A DNA stretch of 64,000 bases from Acidimicrobiia bacterium (GTDB lineage Bacteria > Actinomycetota > Acidimicrobiia > Spongiisociales > UBA5794), in NCBI GenBank assembly GCA_030065575.1, contig JASJDZ010000024.1, forward strand, positions 1,717 to 65,716. The letters are read 5' to 3'. Position numbers and translations under genes: made by a program. Shown piece by piece: positions 3,914-63,923 of the stretch. The notes beneath the pieces were generated by a model. The model saw nothing but the letters and a program-made list of their open reading frames with translations, was not told the origin of the DNA and made no database searches. Each line of letters starts with the position of its first letter. Position 1 is the first letter of the stretch.

Positions 3914-4303
3914 GTGGCGAAGCCCCAGCAACGCAGCCGGCGCAAGGTCAAGAGGAATATCTCCCACGGCCAGGCGCACATCAAGGCGAGTTTTAACAAC
4001 ACAATCATCACGATCACCGATCAAGAGGGTCGGGTCCAGGCTTGGACCTCCGGCGGCTCGGTCGGGTTCAAAGGTTCGCGGAAGTCGACACCATATGCCG
4101 CGCAGGTCGCTGCCGAGCAGGCTGCCCGCAAGGCAGGCGAAATGGGCATGCGCAAGCTCGACGTCATCGTTGCCGGCTCCGGCTCCGGTCGTGAAACCGC
4201 CATTCGCACCCTGCAGAACATGGGCATCGAGGTCACAGGAATCAGGGACGTAACCCCGATTCCGCACAACGGTTGTCGCCCCAAGAAGCGGAAGGGTCGT
4301 TAG
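3914..4303 (+). CDS. rpsK: 30S ribosomal protein S11
   Basis: 129 aa; [18 protein letters not shown]...[11 protein letters not shown] motif. Confidence 0.97.
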
Positions 4304-4305
4304 CC

Positions 4306-4911
4306 ATGGCTCGTTACACCGGACCTCGTACCAAGGTCAGCCGGCGCGCCCGGCAGCTTCTCGATGACAACAAGGCCAAGTACTTCGACCGTCGTCCCTA
4401 CCCACCGGGTGATCACGGACGTGGCCGCATTCGCGAGTCGCAATACCTCATCCAGCTGCGTGAGAAGCAGAAGCTGCGCCACATCTACGGCGTACTCGAG
4501 AAGCAGTTCCGCCGGTACTACAAAGAGGCGAACCGTCGTTCCGGCATCACCGGTACAAATCTGCTTCAGATCCTCGAGTCCCGCCTCGACAACGTCGTCT
4601 ACCGGGCCGGTTTTGCGCGAACCCGCCCCCAGGCCCGCCAGCTGGTCAACCACGGCCATTTCCGCGTCAATGGCAAGAAGGTGGACATCCCCTCGTATCA
4701 GGTGCGGGTCGGAGATGTTGTCACAATCAAAGAGCGCAGCAAAGAGACGTTCGCCGTTCAGCACGCCATCGATACCATCGACCGCTCCGCTCCGGAGTGG
4801 CTGGATGTGAACGTCGATAAGCGTGAGGCCGCCGTCACGGTGATGCCAAGCCGCGAACAGATCGATACAGAGATCAAAGAACAGCTAATCGTCGAGCTCT
4901 ACTCGAAGTAG
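4306..4911 (+). CDS. rpsD: 30S ribosomal protein S4
   Basis: MARYTGPRTKVSRR... start at ATG 4306; the ORF-track start 4273 would overlap rpsK. Confidence 0.95.
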   Translation: MARYTGPRTKVSRRARQLLDDNKAKYFDRRPYPPGDHGRGRIRESQYLIQLREKQKLRHIYGVLEKQFRRYYKEANRRSGITGTNLLQILESRLDNVVYRAGFARTRPQARQLVNHGHFRVNGKKVDIPSYQVRVGDVVTIKERSKETFAVQHAIDTIDRSAPEWLDVNVDKREAAVTVMPSREQIDTEIKEQLIVELYSK

Positions 4912-34971: not shown

Positions 34972-35044
34972 TGTGTGGAGTTCGATTGCATCGCCCCTGT
35001 GTGGAGTTCGGTTGTACCGAACTCCAAGCTGATTGCATCAGCCC
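34972..35044. repeat. two adjacent family-2 REP-like units (GGAGTTC hairpin + GATTGCATC dyad)
   Basis: tgtgtGGAGTTCGATTGCATCGCCCC, then tgtgtGGAGTTCGgttgtaCCGAACTCCaagCTGATTGCATCAGccc; the last unit overlaps the cimA stop codon. Confidence 0.75.
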
Positions 35045-59740: not shown

Positions 59741-60865
59741 TCAGCCACCCACTAGATCCGGCGCCCGTGCCCGGGCCCTGACGAACAGCCGCTTCTGCGG
59801 TGGGGATTCCGGGTCGATGCGCAGCCCCATGCCGTGAATGACGACGTGATGATGGAACCAGCACAGCGTCGTCAGATTCTCCGGGTCGTGACTGCCTCCG
59901 TCGGAACGAGGCGTGACGTGATGTGGCTGCAGCCGGTAGCGGCTGTTGCAGCCGGAGATTGTGCAACTGCCGTCCCGCCACGCAACGAACCGGCGGGTTG
60001 CAGGAGGAATCGAGCGGGTAGCGGGGGAGTGGATCACGGGCCTGCCCCGCTCGAGCCCGACGATCTGAACCCGGCCGACACAGAGGATCCTCTCCAAGGT
60101 TCGTGGCCCGACCCGATGCCCGTAGGCAATCTCAGCACCGGCCTCGCCCTTCGTTGGCCCGGCCAGGGAAGCATCTACGAGCACGGTCGCGACTGGTTCG
60201 GACCGAGTACTCGACCCGGCCGGCTCATATCCGTCGAGTGAATCCTGTGCGATGGAAACTGCGGCATCGGCCATCCTCTGCCACTTGGCGATCGCCGGGC
60301 CGGGGAGATCGTTGAACATGTCAGCTCGCTGCTCGAGTGCCTTGGTGAGGATGCGGTGCTCAAACCCGGGCAGTTCCACGACCGTGCGCCCGCCGGAGCC
60401 GTCAAAGGTGTCTTGGATGAAGAGGCGGCGGTCGCTGAAAAGGTCGGTCTCGTCCAAAGCTGTGATGTTCCGCTGGCGATGGCGGAGACGGGCGACGCCG
60501 CTGATGTCATATCCGAAAGAGCGTTCCAGTGTGTCCTCATCCGCTCCTGAGTTGGCGAGGCGCGAGGTAGCGACGATTCGGTCAAACGCGTAGCTGCCTT
60601 CCTCGGCTGCTTTCTGGAGCTCTGGACGGTCGGGCAGGCAGCGAGCAGCGTGGACGAGATCGCGGGCGGTGGTGTCGGAGACATCCAGCCGGGCCCGCAC
60701 CCACTCCTGCAGCGACCGGGCCCCATCAACCATCCGAACCTGTCGGCGATCCAGCTCCCGCAGGCTCTCTGCCTGGCGGGCTCGGAGCCTGGTGACCAAC
60801 AACTCACATGCCAGAACATCCTGTTCCAGCTGGTCGGTTGTGGTGTCGAAGTCGGTATCCAACAT
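59741..60865 (-). CDS. DUF222/HNH endonuclease family protein
   Basis: 374 aa; N-terminal DUF222-like region; C-terminal C.I.GC......HH......GG.......L..LC..HH HNH motif. Confidence 0.85.
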   Translation of the reverse strand: MLDTDFDTTTDQLEQDVLACELLVTRLRARQAESLRELDRRQVRMVDGARSLQEWVRARLDVSDTTARDLVHAARCLPDRPELQKAAEEGSYAFDRIVATSRLANSGADEDTLERSFGYDISGVARLRHRQRNITALDETDLFSDRRLFIQDTFDGSGGRTVVELPGFEHRILTKALEQRADMFNDLPGPAIAKWQRMADAAVSIAQDSLDGYEPAGSSTRSEPVATVLVDASLAGPTKGEAGAEIAYGHRVGPRTLERILCVGRVQIVGLERGRPVIHSPATRSIPPATRRFVAWRDGSCTISGCNSRYRLQPHHVTPRSDGGSHDPENLTTLCWFHHHVVIHGMGLRIDPESPPQKRLFVRARARAPDLVGG

Positions 60866-60920: not shown

Positions 60921-61355
60921 ATGGATAGTTGGAGCCAAGTTGTCGAACACGCTCGCCGCCTCGGGCCGGACTGTTTCATGGCCACCGTTCGACCCGATGG
61001 CCAGCCCCATCTTGCCGTCGTGTCCCCTGGCTTCACCGATGACTCGCTTGTCGTTGCGACGTGGGAGACATCTGTCAAGGCCCGCAACCTGCGTGCCGGA
61101 AGCGGCGTCATGTTCCACTGGGTCGTAAGGGAGGAAACCGGCAACGACATGCTGTTGGCTCGCGGGAGACCCGGCCTTGTCGATGGCGGTCGTCGCAGGC
61201 TGGAGCTTTGGGAGCGTGACTGCCTGCCTTACGACCCGAGTGACTGGTACGACGGACCTGATGACCCCCGGTTGCTCTGGATCGAGGTGAAGCCGACCTA
61301 TGCGTCCCTCCAGCGCAACCTCGGTCAGGACGGCACCTCGGTCTGGCGCGCATGA
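60921..61355 (+). CDS. PNPOx-like (split-barrel flavin-binding) family protein
   Basis: 144 aa; CFMATVRPDGQPHLAVV...ARNLRAGSGV pattern resembling pyridoxamine-5'-phosphate-oxidase-family proteins; start chosen at ATG 60921. Confidence 0.5.
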   Translation: MDSWSQVVEHARRLGPDCFMATVRPDGQPHLAVVSPGFTDDSLVVATWETSVKARNLRAGSGVMFHWVVREETGNDMLLARGRPGLVDGGRRRLELWERDCLPYDPSDWYDGPDDPRLLWIEVKPTYASLQRNLGQDGTSVWRA

Positions 61356-61804
61356 GTTCCGGACCGCGACTGATCATCGTCTGCGGGCTACCCGGATCGG
61401 GAAAGACCACCCACGCTGAGCAGCTCGCTGCGCTTCATGGTGGCTTCCGGCTCTCGGCAGACGATTGGATGGGAGTTCTCGACATCAACCTGTGGGACGG
61501 GGATGCCCGGGATCGGATCGAACGCCTGCAATGGGAGCTTGCCCAGGATCTACTGCGGCGTGGCCAGACCGTGATCATCGAGTGGGGGACGTGGGGGCGA
61601 TCGGAACGCGATGCCCTGCGGGAGGGAGCCAGAGCCCTGGGTGCCGCCGTCGAACTGCACTACCTCGATGAACCAATCGAGGTTCTGTGGGAACGGGTCC
61701 GAGACCGAGGTCTGGAAGACCCGCCGATGACGCGAGAACAACTCGAGTCCTACGCCGATACCATCGATGTGCCGACCGACGAAGAGCTGGCACTGTACGA
61801 CTAA
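61352..61804 (+). CDS. P-loop kinase-like ATP-binding protein (AAA_33-like)
   Basis: 150 aa; Walker A GLPGSGKTT; ATGA overlap with the upstream gene. Confidence 0.7.
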   Translation: MSSGPRLIIVCGLPGSGKTTHAEQLAALHGGFRLSADDWMGVLDINLWDGDARDRIERLQWELAQDLLRRGQTVIIEWGTWGRSERDALREGARALGAAVELHYLDEPIEVLWERVRDRGLEDPPMTREQLESYADTIDVPTDEELALYD

Positions 61805-61835
61805 CCCTGACCTTCGGTGCCTTCGGCACACCCCG

Positions 61836-61877
61836 GGTTCCGTTGCATGGAACTCGACGGCGATTGCATCGCCCCCC
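61836..61877. repeat. family-2 REP-like unit flanking the IS (left side)
   Basis: GGTTCC-gttgcat-GGAACTC gac GGCGATTGCATCGCC CCCC. Confidence 0.7.
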
Positions 61878-62150
61878 TTATCTGAGTGGTGGCGCGTGTG
61901 TCAATGGGTGTGTGCTGTTGTTTTCCTTTTTGGTTGTTGGGACGTGTCGGTGTCCGGCCTTATCTGGGTGCGCGAACTGGGTGGGTTCGGCGACATGATG
62001 TTGGTGGGGTCCCCGTTTCGGGTGCGGCCGTTCGATCTACCAGGGTGCTCCGCAGTTGGGGTGCGGGCAACAGGGGGGTTGCGGGAACCGGCCGCGTGAC
62101 TATCGGCGATGTTCGGATGCGTGACACGTCATAGCTTTCGGGTTTAGTTG
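61878..62150 (-). ncRNA. candidate bridge (guide) RNA region in the transposase-distal non-coding arm
   Basis: The 273-nt non-coding arm holds an internal copy of the IS end (61958-61970 vs 61876-61888, 12/13). It also holds the reverse complement of the junction/target (62050-61 vs 63335-46, 11/12). Confidence 0.35.
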
Positions 62151-63176
62151 TTAGTTGGGTGGGATCTCGGTCCAGGCGTCGTCGCCGAGACGCTGCAGGA
62201 TGTGGTGGATACGTCGGGTGTGTTTGCGGGCCACGGAGAGCGCGGCGCGTGAGGCGCCGATTCGGCGGCGGGCCGCTCGGTAGTACTGGTGGTCGGGGGA
62301 TTGACGTTTAGAGGCATGTTGGGCGGCTTCGACTAGGGCCCAGCGCAGTGTGGGTGAGCCTTGGCGGGCGAGTTTGCCGGGTGGGCCGTGCCCGTCGGAG
62401 TCGTTGACGGTGATGTCGAGTCCGGTGAACCGCACCGCTTGTTTCGAGGACGTGAACCGGCGGGTGTCGCCGATCTCGGCCCAGATGATGGTGGCCAGCA
62501 ACGGTCCGATCCCCCACAGGGTCTGGAGGGCGATGCAGCCTGGTTGGTGTCGCCCGATACGTTTCAGGTCGCCACGGAGTGTCTCGATACGGCGGGTGAG
62601 GTCGTCAACGATCCCGATTGCTTCGGTCACGTAGCGGTGTCCTGCCTCCGATAGGTCCGCGGCGGCGAGGAGCTGATGCCCCTCGTCACTTGTCAGCGCC
62701 GAGATTGATGGTGCACCTTGGTGGAATAGTTGCGCGTGGATGCGTTGGAGCCAGCTGCGCCGTGTTGTCATCAACTGGTGGTATAACCGTGCCAAGGTCC
62801 GTACCTCGAGCACATGGGACGGCGGGATCCACGATTCCGGGATCCGGTTCTCCATCAGCAGCAATCGCAGATGCGCCGCATCGGCTCGATCCGTTTTGGC
62901 GCGTTTCTTCGGACTCTTCAACCACGCCGTCTCTGCCGGCTCCGCGACATGCGCTTCGATCCCGGCCGCGGCGAGCTCTTCAACCACGTACCGCCATCCG
63001 GTGCAGCCTTCCACTGCGAATGCCACGTTGTCGTCGCTGTCAAAGCATGCCAGCCAGGCCCTCAACTCGGCTCGCGTCCCTCCAATCCGGCCCCGCGTCA
63101 ACTCACCCGTGGCCGTATCCGCATACTCGAATGTGTTCTGAGCACGATGCACATCCAATGCTCCTACGATGGACAT
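62151..63176 (-). CDS. IS110-family transposase/recombinase
   Basis: N-terminal VGALDVHRAQ (DEDD RuvC-like) and C-terminal LQTLWGIGPLLATIIWAEIGDTRRF (Transposase_20 HhH); ATG 63176 preceded by GGGGAGG. Confidence 0.9.
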   Translation of the reverse strand: MSIVGALDVHRAQNTFEYADTATGELTRGRIGGTRAELRAWLACFDSDDNVAFAVEGCTGWRYVVEELAAAGIEAHVAEPAETAWLKSPKKRAKTDRADAAHLRLLLMENRIPESWIPPSHVLEVRTLARLYHQLMTTRRSWLQRIHAQLFHQGAPSISALTSDEGHQLLAAADLSEAGHRYVTEAIGIVDDLTRRIETLRGDLKRIGRHQPGCIALQTLWGIGPLLATIIWAEIGDTRRFTSSKQAVRFTGLDITVNDSDGHGPPGKLARQGSPTLRWALVEAAQHASKRQSPDHQYYRAARRRIGASRAALSVARKHTRRIHHILQRLGDDAWTEIPPN

Positions 63177-63348
63177 CGAGACCTCCCCTCGATAGCTCCG
63201 CCCCAACACTGGGGCCACTCACACAGAATTGTGTCTGAGCCGAGAGGAGGTCTCACTCATCACATCTACCCCCGCACTTCGTGCGGCGGTACTTTGCCCC
63301 CGCTGCGCGGGGGGACTGACAATCCGGTACCTTCCCCCCACTGCGGCA

Positions 63349-63406
63349 GAGTTCCATCGCATGGAACTCCAAGCTGCCCGCAGGGCAGCCGCTGTTTGCA
63401 TCAGCC
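63349..63406. repeat. family-2 REP-like unit flanking the IS (right side), with extra internal hairpin
   Basis: GAGTTCC-atcgca-TGGAACTC caa GCTGCCC-gca-GGGCAGC c GCTGTTTGCATCAGC. Confidence 0.7.
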
Positions 63407-63674: not shown

Positions 63675-63923
63675 TCAGTTTTCCTGGCCGCCGGCTGCCT
63701 CTTGCTCTATAAACGCACGGATACGGTCTAAAAGTTCCTGCGGTGGTTCATCTCGACCGCACTCTTTGATCCGTTCTTTCAGGCGAGACTCGAAATCAAA
63801 CGCATCCATGCAGGGACCACATCTGCGCAAATGCCATCGAACCCTGAGGCGGCGTGACCAAGTGAGTTCCTCGTCGATGTACTGGTAGAGGTAGTCAACC
63901 GCGTTGGCGCATTCGGCTTTCAT
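63675..63923 (-). CDS. rsrA: zinc-binding anti-sigma factor (ZAS; RsrA/RshA-like)
   Basis: 82 aa; HLRRCGPC (H-x3-C-x2-C) ZAS motif; ATGA overlap with the upstream sigma-factor stop. Confidence 0.8.
   Translation of the reverse strand: MKAECANAVDYLYQYIDEELTWSRRLRVRWHLRRCGPCMDAFDFESRLKERIKECGRDEPPQELLDRIRAFIEQEAAGGQEN

What the first reader, a model, noticed from the sequence alone, without database searches (positions are those of the whole stretch)
61876..63346. IS110-family element whose non-coding arm carries copies of its own end and of the insertion junction (candidate bridge RNA guides)
The element (about 61878-63339) encodes one DEDD/HhH recombinase, has no terminal inverted repeats, and is bounded by C6 runs. 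In the 273-nt arm distal to the recombinase stop there are three matches. (a) 61958-61970 CCTTATCTGGGTG repeats the left junction 61876-61888 CCTTATCTGAGTG (12/13), and the similarity continues into ...CGCG. (b) 62050-62061 CCGCAGTTGGGG is the reverse complement (11/12) of CCCCCACTGCGG, which spans the right junction at 63335-63346. (c) 62073-62091 GGGGGGTTGCGGGAACCGG weakly resembles the reverse complement of the right end. Internal segments matching donor ends and target are what the bispecific bridge RNAs recently described for IS110/IS1111 recombinases would produce. The inferred target is the junction between two family-2 REP-like units. This gives a concrete donor/target guide hypothesis for this element.
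Basis: partly seen in the sequence, partly recalled or inferred. Interest (0 to 1): 0.7.

Follow-up and report, generated by a model that had tools for sequence, protein, structure and literature searches.

The report
IS1111-type insertion sequence with bridge RNA

Summary
The element is real, but it spans 61877-63265 on the minus strand (1389 bp), not 61878-63339. Other copies and relatives diverge from the window immediately outside ...GGGTAG|ATGTGATG (5' end) and ...CAGATAAG|GGGGGC (3' end). An uninterrupted copy of the joined flanks exists in a related contig.

It is IS1111-like. It encodes a DEDD/Ser transposase, has a 274-nt non-coding region downstream of tnp, and has short subterminal inverted repeats.

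That region encodes a ~190-nt structured RNA (62130-61941, minus strand) conserved across 81 diverse relatives, with covariation support. Four loop segments match the element's own target and ends:
- CCCCCCU (62072-62078) is complementary to the core AG plus the right flank GGGGG.
- GGUAG (62037-62041) equals the left flank plus core.
- ACAUC (61997-62001) is complementary to the IS 5' end.
- CAGAUAAG (61959-61966) equals the IS 3' end.

Across 113 insertion sites and 72 different guides, the guides covary with their own flanks.

Match (b) is a structural hairpin matched by chance to DNA outside the element. Match (c) overlaps a true target guide but was paired with the wrong partner.

Verdict: a new member of a known kind, of modest interest.

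The parts
61877..63265 (-). Insertion sequence, 1389 bp, counted with one copy of the AG core at its 3' end (61877-61878, CT on the + strand).
   Evidence: Copies encoding the identical transposase (L081, L082, L083) and relatives at 71-88% identity (L086-L090) diverge from the window just outside these points.
63266..63270 (-). Left half of the target, GGT plus core AG (CTACC on the + strand).
   Evidence: GGGTAG precedes ATGTG in the window, L081, L082, L086 and L087. The L088 clade has GGGAG there, and its RNA changes in step.
61872..61876 (-). Right half of the target, GGGGG.
   Evidence: GATAAG|GGGGGC is found at all four distinct sites of the identical element and in L086/L087. Positions +1 to +5 are the ones that covary with the guide.
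62151..63176 (-). Transposase CDS: 341 aa plus stop, ATG at 63176.
   Evidence: Pfam PF01548 and PF02371; NCBIfam NF033542 at 152.6 bits against a cut-off of 140. The KTDxxD motif and the serine align to IS621.
63177..63265 (-). 5' leader. Its first bases pair with the ribosome-binding site and start codon.
   Evidence: Fold of -54.4 kcal/mol, z -4.66, 0 of 200 shuffles as stable.
61941..62130 (-). Bridge/seek RNA core (~190 nt). Closing stems are 62123-62130 with 61941-61948, and 62114-62117 with 61953-61956.
   Evidence: A profile built from 77 distant relatives hits the window only here, E 4e-24. Covariation is shown.
62024..62095 (-). Target-binding loop. The basal stem is 62085-62095 with 62024-62033; the apical hairpin is 62050-62066.
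Evidence: Basal stem is 98.9% paired and apical stem 85.2% paired across 81 sequences, with compensatory changes.
62072..62078 (-). Right-target guide CCCCCCU, on the 5' side of the target loop. It is complementary to the tnp-sense strand: AG core plus GGGGG.
   Evidence: 7/7 with this element's own site. Family-wide identity to the element's own flank at +1 to +5 is 0.95-0.73, against 0.74-0.30 for other elements' flanks.
62035..62041 (-). Left-target guide GGUAG (62037-62041), followed by AU (62035-62036), which matches the first two bases of the IS 5' end (handshake-like).
   Evidence: Identity to own flank at -1 to -3 is 1.00/0.97/0.88, against 0.73/0.80/0.68 for others. Variants GACAG, CAAAG, GAGAG and GGGAG track their flanks.
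61997..62001 (-). Right-donor guide ACAUC, complementary to core G plus ATGT of the IS 5' end.
   Evidence: Identity at IS position +4 is 0.92 for own element against 0.48 for others. Examples: GCCAUC with GATGGC, CUCAUC with GATGAG, CACAUC with GATGTG.
61971..61992 (-). Hairpin of the donor-binding loop.
   Evidence: 97.8% paired, and 3 of its 5 pairs show changes on both sides.
61958..61966 (-). Left-donor guide CAGAUAAG (61959-61966), plus G (61958), which equals the first base of the right flank.
   Evidence: 8/8 with the IS 3' end. The following base equals the first flank base at 111 of 113 sites: G/G 95, C/C 8, T/T 8.
61883..61888 (.). 3' subterminal inverted repeat, TGAGTG on the + strand. 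Its partner CACTCA is at 63254-63259.
   Evidence: Read directly from the sequence. Relatives have 15-16-bp repeats at the same offset.
61899..61904 (-). -35 hexamer TTGACA of a promoter that is completed (TAAG|AT) only when the 3' end is joined to the 5' end.
   Evidence: 78 of 92 distinct family 3' tails have a hexamer matching at least 4/6, placed 16-18 nt upstream of TAAG. At control offsets, 0-4 of 92 do. No promoter is found in the integrated form.

Best explanation
This is an intact IS1111-type member of the IS110 family, spanning 61877-63265 on the minus strand. It sits between GGT-AG and GGGGG inside an array of REP-like hairpins.

The 274-nt region after the transposase stop codon encodes a ~190-nt RNA in the same sense as tnp. 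That RNA forms two guide-bearing loops inside a common closing stem.

In the target loop, the 5' side (CCCCCCU) pairs with the tnp-sense strand of the core plus right flank. The 3' side (GGUAG) pairs with the opposite strand of the left flank plus core. In the donor loop, the 5' side (ACAUC) pairs with the start of the element, and the 3' side (CAGAUAAG) pairs with the opposite strand of its end. One or two bases after each 3'-side guide match the other DNA partner, as 'handshake' bases do in IS621.

Inferred cycle:
1. The DEDD/Ser recombinase excises the element as a circle joined at CAGATA-AG-ATGTGA.
2. The junction completes a promoter: TTGACA, 18 nt, TAAGAT.
3. That promoter drives tnp and, downstream on the same transcript, the RNA.
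4. The RNA-protein complex then aligns the circle junction with GGTAGGGGGG and recombines at the shared AG without a target duplication.

Shown here: the ends, the target, RNA conservation and structure, and guide/DNA covariation. Inferred: RNA expression and processing, circle formation, promoter activity and catalysis.
For: Ends and target:
- Searches show four distinct sites for the identical element, plus relatives.
- One search shows the joined flanks match an unoccupied site in L083, with a 22-nt identical block across the junction.

Protein.

RNA:
- nhmmer E 4e-24, a single hit, on the minus strand.
- 88.3% of cells paired against 29-45% when partners are slid; 165 cells with changes on both sides against 53 in shuffles, reached by 0 of 500 shuffles. 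There are many U-G pairs that would be C-A on the other strand.

Guides:
- mean contiguous match of the guide to its own right flank is 4.12, against 1.36 for shuffled flanks (maximum 1.77 in 2000 shuffles), over 113 sites and 72 guides.
- left-target and right-donor guides.
- table of variants.

The guide order (segment complementary to the top strand lies 5' of the segment complementary to the bottom strand) and the downstream position of the non-coding region match IS1111-type seekRNAs (PMC11187229) and the RE location reported in PMC11208160.

Junction promoter. Hybrid promoters are known in this family (PMC12288879).
Against: - There are no expression data. No RNA 5' or 3' ends are known, and no promoter of its own was found in the integrated copy.
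- Thermodynamic support for the fold of this one sequence is weak: z -1.3 for the whole arm and -2.2 for the core.
- The outer closing stems are paired in only 76-77% of cells.
- The donor guides hardly vary across the family, so covariation for the donor rests mainly on one position.
- The subterminal repeat is only 6 bp, below the 7-17 bp quoted for IS1111.
- No Rfam family matched.
- The transposase was not placed in a tree with named IS1111 and IS110 members.
Confidence: 0.85

Rival explanations
1. The element runs to 63339, and the arm carries copies of the left junction (a), the right junction (b) and the right end (c) as guides.
For: The strings exist. L082 resembles the window as far as 63384.
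Against: Upstream of 63265, L081 has different DNA. L082 is a diverged REP-like mosaic with compensatory hairpin changes. L086-L090 share nothing beyond (G)GGTAG or GGGAG. Match (b) is reached by 19 of 400 shuffles, and its arm segment is a covarying hairpin.
Confidence: 0.03
2. The internal copy of the end and the other segments act as DNA sites, for example extra transposase-binding sites or alternative ends. No RNA guide is involved.
For: The internal CAGATAAG is identical to the true end. In three related loci another element is inserted exactly there.
Against: Helices are kept by compensatory and U-G changes, which makes sense only for an RNA of the tnp sense. Guide segments on opposite sides of loops track both strands of the flanks, as in characterised bridge and seek RNAs (PMC11208160, PMC11187229).
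Confidence: 0.05
3. The guide RNA lies in the 5' arm (IS110-type layout), and the 3' arm is only a structured 3' UTR.
For: The 5' leader is very stable.
Against: The true 5' arm is only 89 nt. Its structure is a simple occlusion of the ribosome-binding site. All four segments that covary with flanks and ends lie in the 3' arm.
Confidence: 0.02
4. The copy in the window is an inactive relic. The RNA and guides are recognisable, but the element no longer moves.
For: The window holds one copy, and the subterminal repeat has decayed to 6 bp.
Against: The reading frame is open with catalytic residues in place. All four guides match their DNA perfectly. Copies 98.5-99.9% identical sit at four different sites in several samples.
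Confidence: 0.1

Closest known systems
IS1111-type elements with seekRNA: ISEc11, ISPa11, ISKpn4, ISPst6 (Siddiquee et al. 2024, PMC11187229)
   Same: - DEDD transposase of about 340 aa.
- Long non-coding region downstream of tnp.
- Subterminal inverted repeats set in from the ends.
- Short RNA carrying one segment complementary to the top strand, placed 5' of one complementary to the bottom strand.
- The two segments overlap at the insertion point.
- Specific target and no duplication.
   Different: - Actinobacterial, high-G+C clade.
- Subterminal repeat of only 6 bp in this copy (15-16 bp in relatives).
- Serine motif reads S-D instead of S-G/T-G.
- Nothing here has been tested experimentally.
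- Protein relationship to those elements was not measured.
IS621 bridge RNA system, IS110 group (Durrant et al. 2024, PMC11208160; Hiraizumi et al. 2024, PMC11208158)
   Same: - Two internal loops, each with two guides that read opposite strands on either side of a 2-nt core.
- The core is included in the pairings.
- One or two 'handshake' bases after the 3'-side guide match the other DNA.
- A junction promoter forms in the circle.
- Read on the strand opposite to tnp, the core here is CT, and the 5'-side/3'-side roles are as in IS621.
   Different: - The RNA lies downstream rather than upstream of tnp.
- Guide order is reversed relative to the tnp strand.
- Guides are shorter: 3+2 and 5+2 nt for the target, about 4+1 and 6+2 nt for the donor.
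- Both loops sit inside one closing stem.
- The protein is only distantly related (E 3e-4).
ISPpu9 and ISPpu10 of Pseudomonas putida (PMC12288879)
   Same: - IS110-family elements inserted in REP sequences.
[quoted passage not shown]
- Structured 5' UTR that limits translation.
- Hybrid junction promoter in ISPpu10.
   Different: - Different host phylum.
- Sequence relationship not tested.
- No sign here of separate Ssr9-like modules or of an antisense RNA (not tested).

Membership tests
IS110 family (DEDD transposase elements) | Transposase with an N-terminal DEDD/RuvC-like domain (PF01548) and a C-terminal PF02371 domain. | tested here: met
   PF01548 at E 6e-12 and PF02371 at E 1.4e-17. NF033542 scores 152.6 bits against a cut-off of 140.
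IS110 family (DEDD transposase elements) | Catalytic acidic residues and the C-terminal serine are conserved. | tested here: met
   The alignment to IS621 covers KTDxxD and places the S of NDSDG opposite the serine of YESG. LDVH and VEG motifs are present. The first D and the E were judged by motif only.
IS110 family (DEDD transposase elements) | Site-specific insertion with no terminal inverted repeats and no target duplication beyond a shared core. | tested here: met
   The same GGTAG|...|GGGGG context is found at four sites. AG is present at both junctions. The joined flanks equal an unoccupied site.
IS1111 group | The longer non-coding region lies downstream of tnp. | tested here: met
   274 nt downstream against 89 nt upstream, once the ends are corrected.
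IS1111 group | Subterminal inverted repeats of 7-17 bp. | tested here: inconclusive
   This copy has only 6 bp (TGAGTG/CACTCA), placed 6 nt from each end. Relatives have 15-16 bp at the same offset.
IS1111 group | Transposase falls in the IS1111 clade; C-terminal GL-P----S(T)G motif. | not tested
   No named IS1111 sequences were at hand for a tree. The motif reads GLDITVNDSD: GL and S are kept, while P and G are not.
Bridge RNA / seekRNA | A conserved structured non-coding RNA in the long non-coding end, in the same sense as tnp. | tested here: met
   Found in 140 of 171 sequences scanned, the 170 loci plus the window. Covariation shown. Profile hit at E 4e-24. U-G pairs fit the tnp-sense strand only.
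Bridge RNA / seekRNA | Loop segments that pair with both strands of the target on either side of the core and covary with it. | tested here: met
   For this element the matches are 7/7 and 5/5.
Bridge RNA / seekRNA | Loop segments that pair with the donor, that is, the joined ends of the element. | tested here: met
   CAGAUAAG matches 8/8 and ACAUC 5/5 for this element. Covariation is seen at IS position +4 only, because the other positions are invariant.
Bridge RNA / seekRNA | The RNA is expressed, binds the transposase and is required for transposition. | not testable with these tools
   No transcript or biochemical data are available.
Rfam RNA families | A match to a curated covariance model. 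| tested here: not met
   No family matched the arm at E up to 10.

The most novel reading that the evidence does not exclude
Read on the strand opposite to tnp, this clade has the same CT core, the same 5'-side/3'-side guide roles and the same handshake position as IS621. IS1111-type elements would then be IS110-type recombination modules whose site polarity is inverted relative to the genes. That predicts the first strand exchanged is the strand antisense to tnp. This compact copy has a 6-bp subterminal repeat and guides of 5-8 nt, so it would be close to a minimal natural version that relies on RNA alone to recognise its ends.
Probability: 0.4. Interest if true: 0.45.

Novelty: new member of a known kind. 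Interest (0 to 1): 0.35.

Why it matters
The window gains a correct annotation: exact ends, target, RNA gene and four guides for an undescribed high-G+C member of the RNA-guided IS110/IS1111 recombinases.

The comparative set gathered here covers 72 natural target guides and 113 insertion sites. It gives a rule for this clade: 3 nt, then the AG core, then 5 nt, plus one handshake base. That rule could be used to predict targets of related elements in Mycobacterium, Rhodococcus and soil Actinomycetota, or to choose candidates for programmable recombination in high-G+C hosts.

It does not change what is known about how such elements work.

Tried and rejected
- **Rfam scan of the region:** only three chance-level hits, none in the arm.
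- **Search for further copies, empty target sites or orphan RNA genes in the window:** none found.
- **Sigma-70 promoter scan of the integrated element:** none found. The terminator-like sites it reported are on the + strand, in the A/C-rich tail, and were not pursued.
- **Single-sequence folding:** only weakly better than shuffles, so the argument rests on covariation.
- **RNAalifold on 81 sequences:** recovered the two loop stems and the donor hairpin but not the outer stems. I added those by hand and tested them; they are the weakest helices.
- **Small middle hairpin (62012-62022):** not aligned consistently by MAFFT, so it was left out of the counts.
- **A second AACAUC-like segment near the RNA 5' end (about 62105-62112):** considered as the right-donor guide and rejected, because it changes in the L088 clade while the IS 5' end does not. 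The segment at 61997-62001 covaries instead.
- **Covariance model:** not built. A sequence profile that left out the window clade was enough to show homology.
- **Host taxon:** not determined.

Full report
**What is in the sequence**

The minus strand of 62151-63176 encodes a 341-aa protein with the two Pfam domains of IS110-family transposases. It passes NCBI's IS110 'RNA-guided transposase' model. Its alignment to the solved IS621 recombinase covers the KTDxxD motif and the catalytic serine.

**Where the element really ends**

The identical protein is encoded on five other public contigs. Relatives at 82-88% and 71% identity were also fetched.

Aligned in the tnp sense, all of them share sequence from ATGTGATGAGTGAGACC... 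to ...CACTCAGATAAG. They differ from one another outside those points.
- Upstream, the window, L081 and L082 share only ...GCGGGGGTAG.
- L086 and L087 share ...GCGGGTAG.
- The L088 clade has ...CAGGGAG.
- Downstream, all window-clade copies continue GGGGGC and then diverge.

The element is therefore 61877-63265. AG is present at both junctions, at 63266-63267 and 61877-61878.

The stretch 63266-63345 is host DNA made of G+C-rich hairpin modules. Its resemblance to L082 shows compensatory hairpin changes typical of REP-like repeats, and L081 has different DNA there.

Joining the window's two flanks gives a sequence that occurs uninterrupted in contig L083. The identical block across the junction is 22 nt: GCGGGGGTAG|GGGGGCGATG.

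**The wider family**

Scans of genome and metagenome collections gave 160 loci encoding relatives at 51-62% identity, one of them a duplicate of L082. Most are from Actinomycetota, including Mycobacterium and Rhodococcus.

Comparing near-identical copies within clusters defines their ends:
- 5' end: flank|(G)AAAG-ATGACATGTGATGGGGACCCC...
- 3' end: ...GGGGGTCCCCAACACAGATAAG|flank

This means 15-16-bp subterminal inverted repeats set 6 nt in from each end. In the window copy the repeat at that offset has shrunk to 6 bp, at 61883-61888 and 63254-63259.

A long non-coding region downstream of tnp, together with subterminal repeats, is what separates the IS1111 group from the IS110 group (PMC11187229 section 6; PMC11208160 section 12).

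**The RNA**

The region after the stop codon is homologous across the family. A motif screen found it in 140 of 171 sequences, the 170 loci plus the window. Eighty-one sequences below 92% identity were aligned.

A profile built from 77 of them, leaving out the window clade, hits the 64-kb window once, at 62107-61941 on the minus strand, E 4e-24.

I named a structure of six helices: two closing stems, the basal stem of the first loop (split into two by a bulge), the apical stem of the first loop, and the hairpin of the second loop. Results:
- 88.3% of cells are paired, against 29-45% when partners are slid by 1-3 columns.
- 165 cells have changes on both sides, against 53 in column shuffles (reached by 0 of 500).
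- Many pairs are U-G, which would be C-A on the other strand, so the RNA has the sense of tnp.
- The closing stems are the weakest helices, at 76-77% paired.

Single-sequence folding is only marginally better than shuffles, and no Rfam family matches.

**The guides**

Four single-stranded segments vary between relatives in step with DNA outside the RNA gene (table).

(i) The 5' side of the first loop is CCCCCCU in the window (62072-62078).
- Its complement matches the AG core and flank positions +1 to +5.
- Identity to the element's own flank is 0.95, 0.93, 0.80, 0.86 and 0.73. Identity to other elements' flanks is 0.74, 0.44, 0.49, 0.34 and 0.30.
- There is no signal beyond +5.
- The mean contiguous match is 4.12, against 1.36 for shuffled flanks (maximum 1.77 in 2000 shuffles).
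- The test covers 113 sites and 72 guides.

(ii) The 3' side of the first loop is GGUAG (62037-62041).
- It equals flank positions -3 to -1 plus the core: own 0.88-1.00, others 0.68-0.80.
- Variants GACAG, CAAAG, GAGAG, GGGAG and GGTAG each match their own flank.

(iii) The segment just 5' of the second hairpin is ACAUC (61997-62001).
- It is complementary to core G plus the first four bases of the element.
- Position +4 agrees in 0.92 of own pairs against 0.48 of others.

(iv) The segment just 3' of the second hairpin is CAGAUAAG (61959-61966).
- It equals the last eight bases of the element.
- It is nearly invariant, as the ends themselves are.

The base after (iv) equals the first flank base at 111 of 113 sites: G/G 95, C/C 8, T/T 8. 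The base after (ii) equals the first base of the element in all cases.

In IS621, bases in this position are the 'handshake guides', which pair with the non-cognate DNA after strand exchange (PMC11208158 section 11).

For the window element all four guides match perfectly: 7/7, 5/5, 5/5 and 8/8.

**Comparison with known systems**

[quoted passage not shown] Here the order is the opposite relative to the tnp strand. That is what Siddiquee et al. report for IS1111-type seekRNAs: the top-strand match lies 5' of the bottom-strand match (PMC11187229 section 9 and abstract).

Read on the other strand, the core here is CT, as in IS621, and the two layouts coincide. This last point is my inference.

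- (a) contains guide (iv) and its handshake base, so it is right. The extra similarity beyond CAGATAAGG has no support from relatives.
- (b) is the loop and 3' half of the apical hairpin of the target loop (62050-62066). The stem is kept by compensatory changes: CCGCA/UGCGG, CUGC/GCAG, CCAC/GUGG. Its supposed partner lies outside the element. An equal match arises in 19 of 400 shuffled arms.
- (c) spans part of the basal stem and guide (i). The guide's partner is the flank at 61872-61876, not the 'right end'.

**Expression (inferred)**

No sigma-70-type promoter is found in the integrated element. Joining the 3' end to the 5' end would give TTGACA (61899-61904), 18 nt, then TAAG|AT.

Across the family, 78 of 92 distinct 3' tails carry a hexamer matching at least 4/6 at 16-18 nt from TAAG. 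At control offsets, 0-4 of 92 do. Hybrid junction promoters that drive tnp and the guide RNA are documented for IS621, ISEc11 and ISPpu10 (PMC12288879).

The 89-nt leader folds at -54.4 kcal/mol (z -4.66), with the first bases of the element paired to the ribosome-binding site and start codon. This would limit translation.

**Verdict**

The gist of the finding holds: the element is an IS110-family element whose distal arm encodes a bispecific guide RNA. One boundary, one of the three matches and the inferred target are wrong, and two guides were missed.

The element is an undescribed but typical member of a known class. No paper in the searched library deals with this actinobacterial clade.

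Noticed in passing
window 63177-63265 (minus strand): The 5' leader forms a very stable structure (-54.4 kcal/mol, z -4.66). GAGACCUCCUCUCG at the element's start pairs with CGAGGGGAGGUCUC, which covers the ribosome-binding site just before the ATG. This is probably a translational brake. Relatives show the same logic: GGGGACC at the start pairs with GGTCCC next to GGAGG.
   Followed up: partly
window 61899-61904 and the ends 61877-61880 / 63264-63265: A -35 hexamer TTGACA lies 18 nt from TAAG at the 3' end. A -10 (TAAGAT) exists only if the 3' end is joined to the 5' end. A -35-like hexamer at this spacing is conserved in 78 of 92 family tails.
   Followed up: yes
L049 4243-5849; same left junction in L145 (1407-1426) and L165 (1825-1844): A second, different IS110-family element, with its own transposase and an upstream non-coding region, is inserted exactly between CAGATAAG and GCTGGGC of the first element's guide-RNA gene. 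That is the internal copy of the donor end. It also ends in AG. It looks like an element that targets another element's bridge-RNA gene.
   Followed up: partly
L083 about 1409: An unoccupied target GCGGGGGTAG|GGGGGCGATG lies about 90 nt downstream of the occupied one in the same REP-like array.
   Followed up: yes
window 61835-61855, 63349-63369, 35004-35024; also 63266-63345: REP-like palindromes GAGTTC...GAACTC flank the element and occur once more in the window. The DNA between the right-hand palindrome and the element is a chain of G+C-rich hairpins. In L082 these differ by compensatory changes.
   Followed up: partly
related loci, e.g. L029 about 4290-4310 and L011 about 4295-4310: Most relatives carry about 270 extra nt between the RNA and the 3' end. 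This stretch holds a conserved Shine-Dalgarno-like GGAGG followed by a start-codon/one-codon/stop mini-ORF (ATG-ACT-TGA or ATG-GCT-TGA). The window clade lacks the segment.
   Followed up: no
window 62400-62432 (protein residues about 252-262): The catalytic serine motif reads GLDITVNDSD here and GLD[IV]TV.SSD in most relatives. That is S-D where IS110/IS1111 transposases are reported to have S-G or T-G.
   Followed up: partly
window 61884-61923 (+ strand): A terminator-like G/T-rich stem followed by a T run sits on the strand opposite to tnp, in the element's A/C-rich tail. It would meet transcription entering from the upstream gene at 61352-61804.
   Followed up: no
window 63675-63923 (minus strand) and 59741-60865 (minus strand): Neighbouring reading frames look, by eye only, like a zinc-binding anti-sigma factor (H-x3-C-x2-C motif) and an HNH endonuclease of the kind common in Actinomycetota. 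This fits the actinobacterial relatives of the element. The host taxon was not determined.
   Followed up: no
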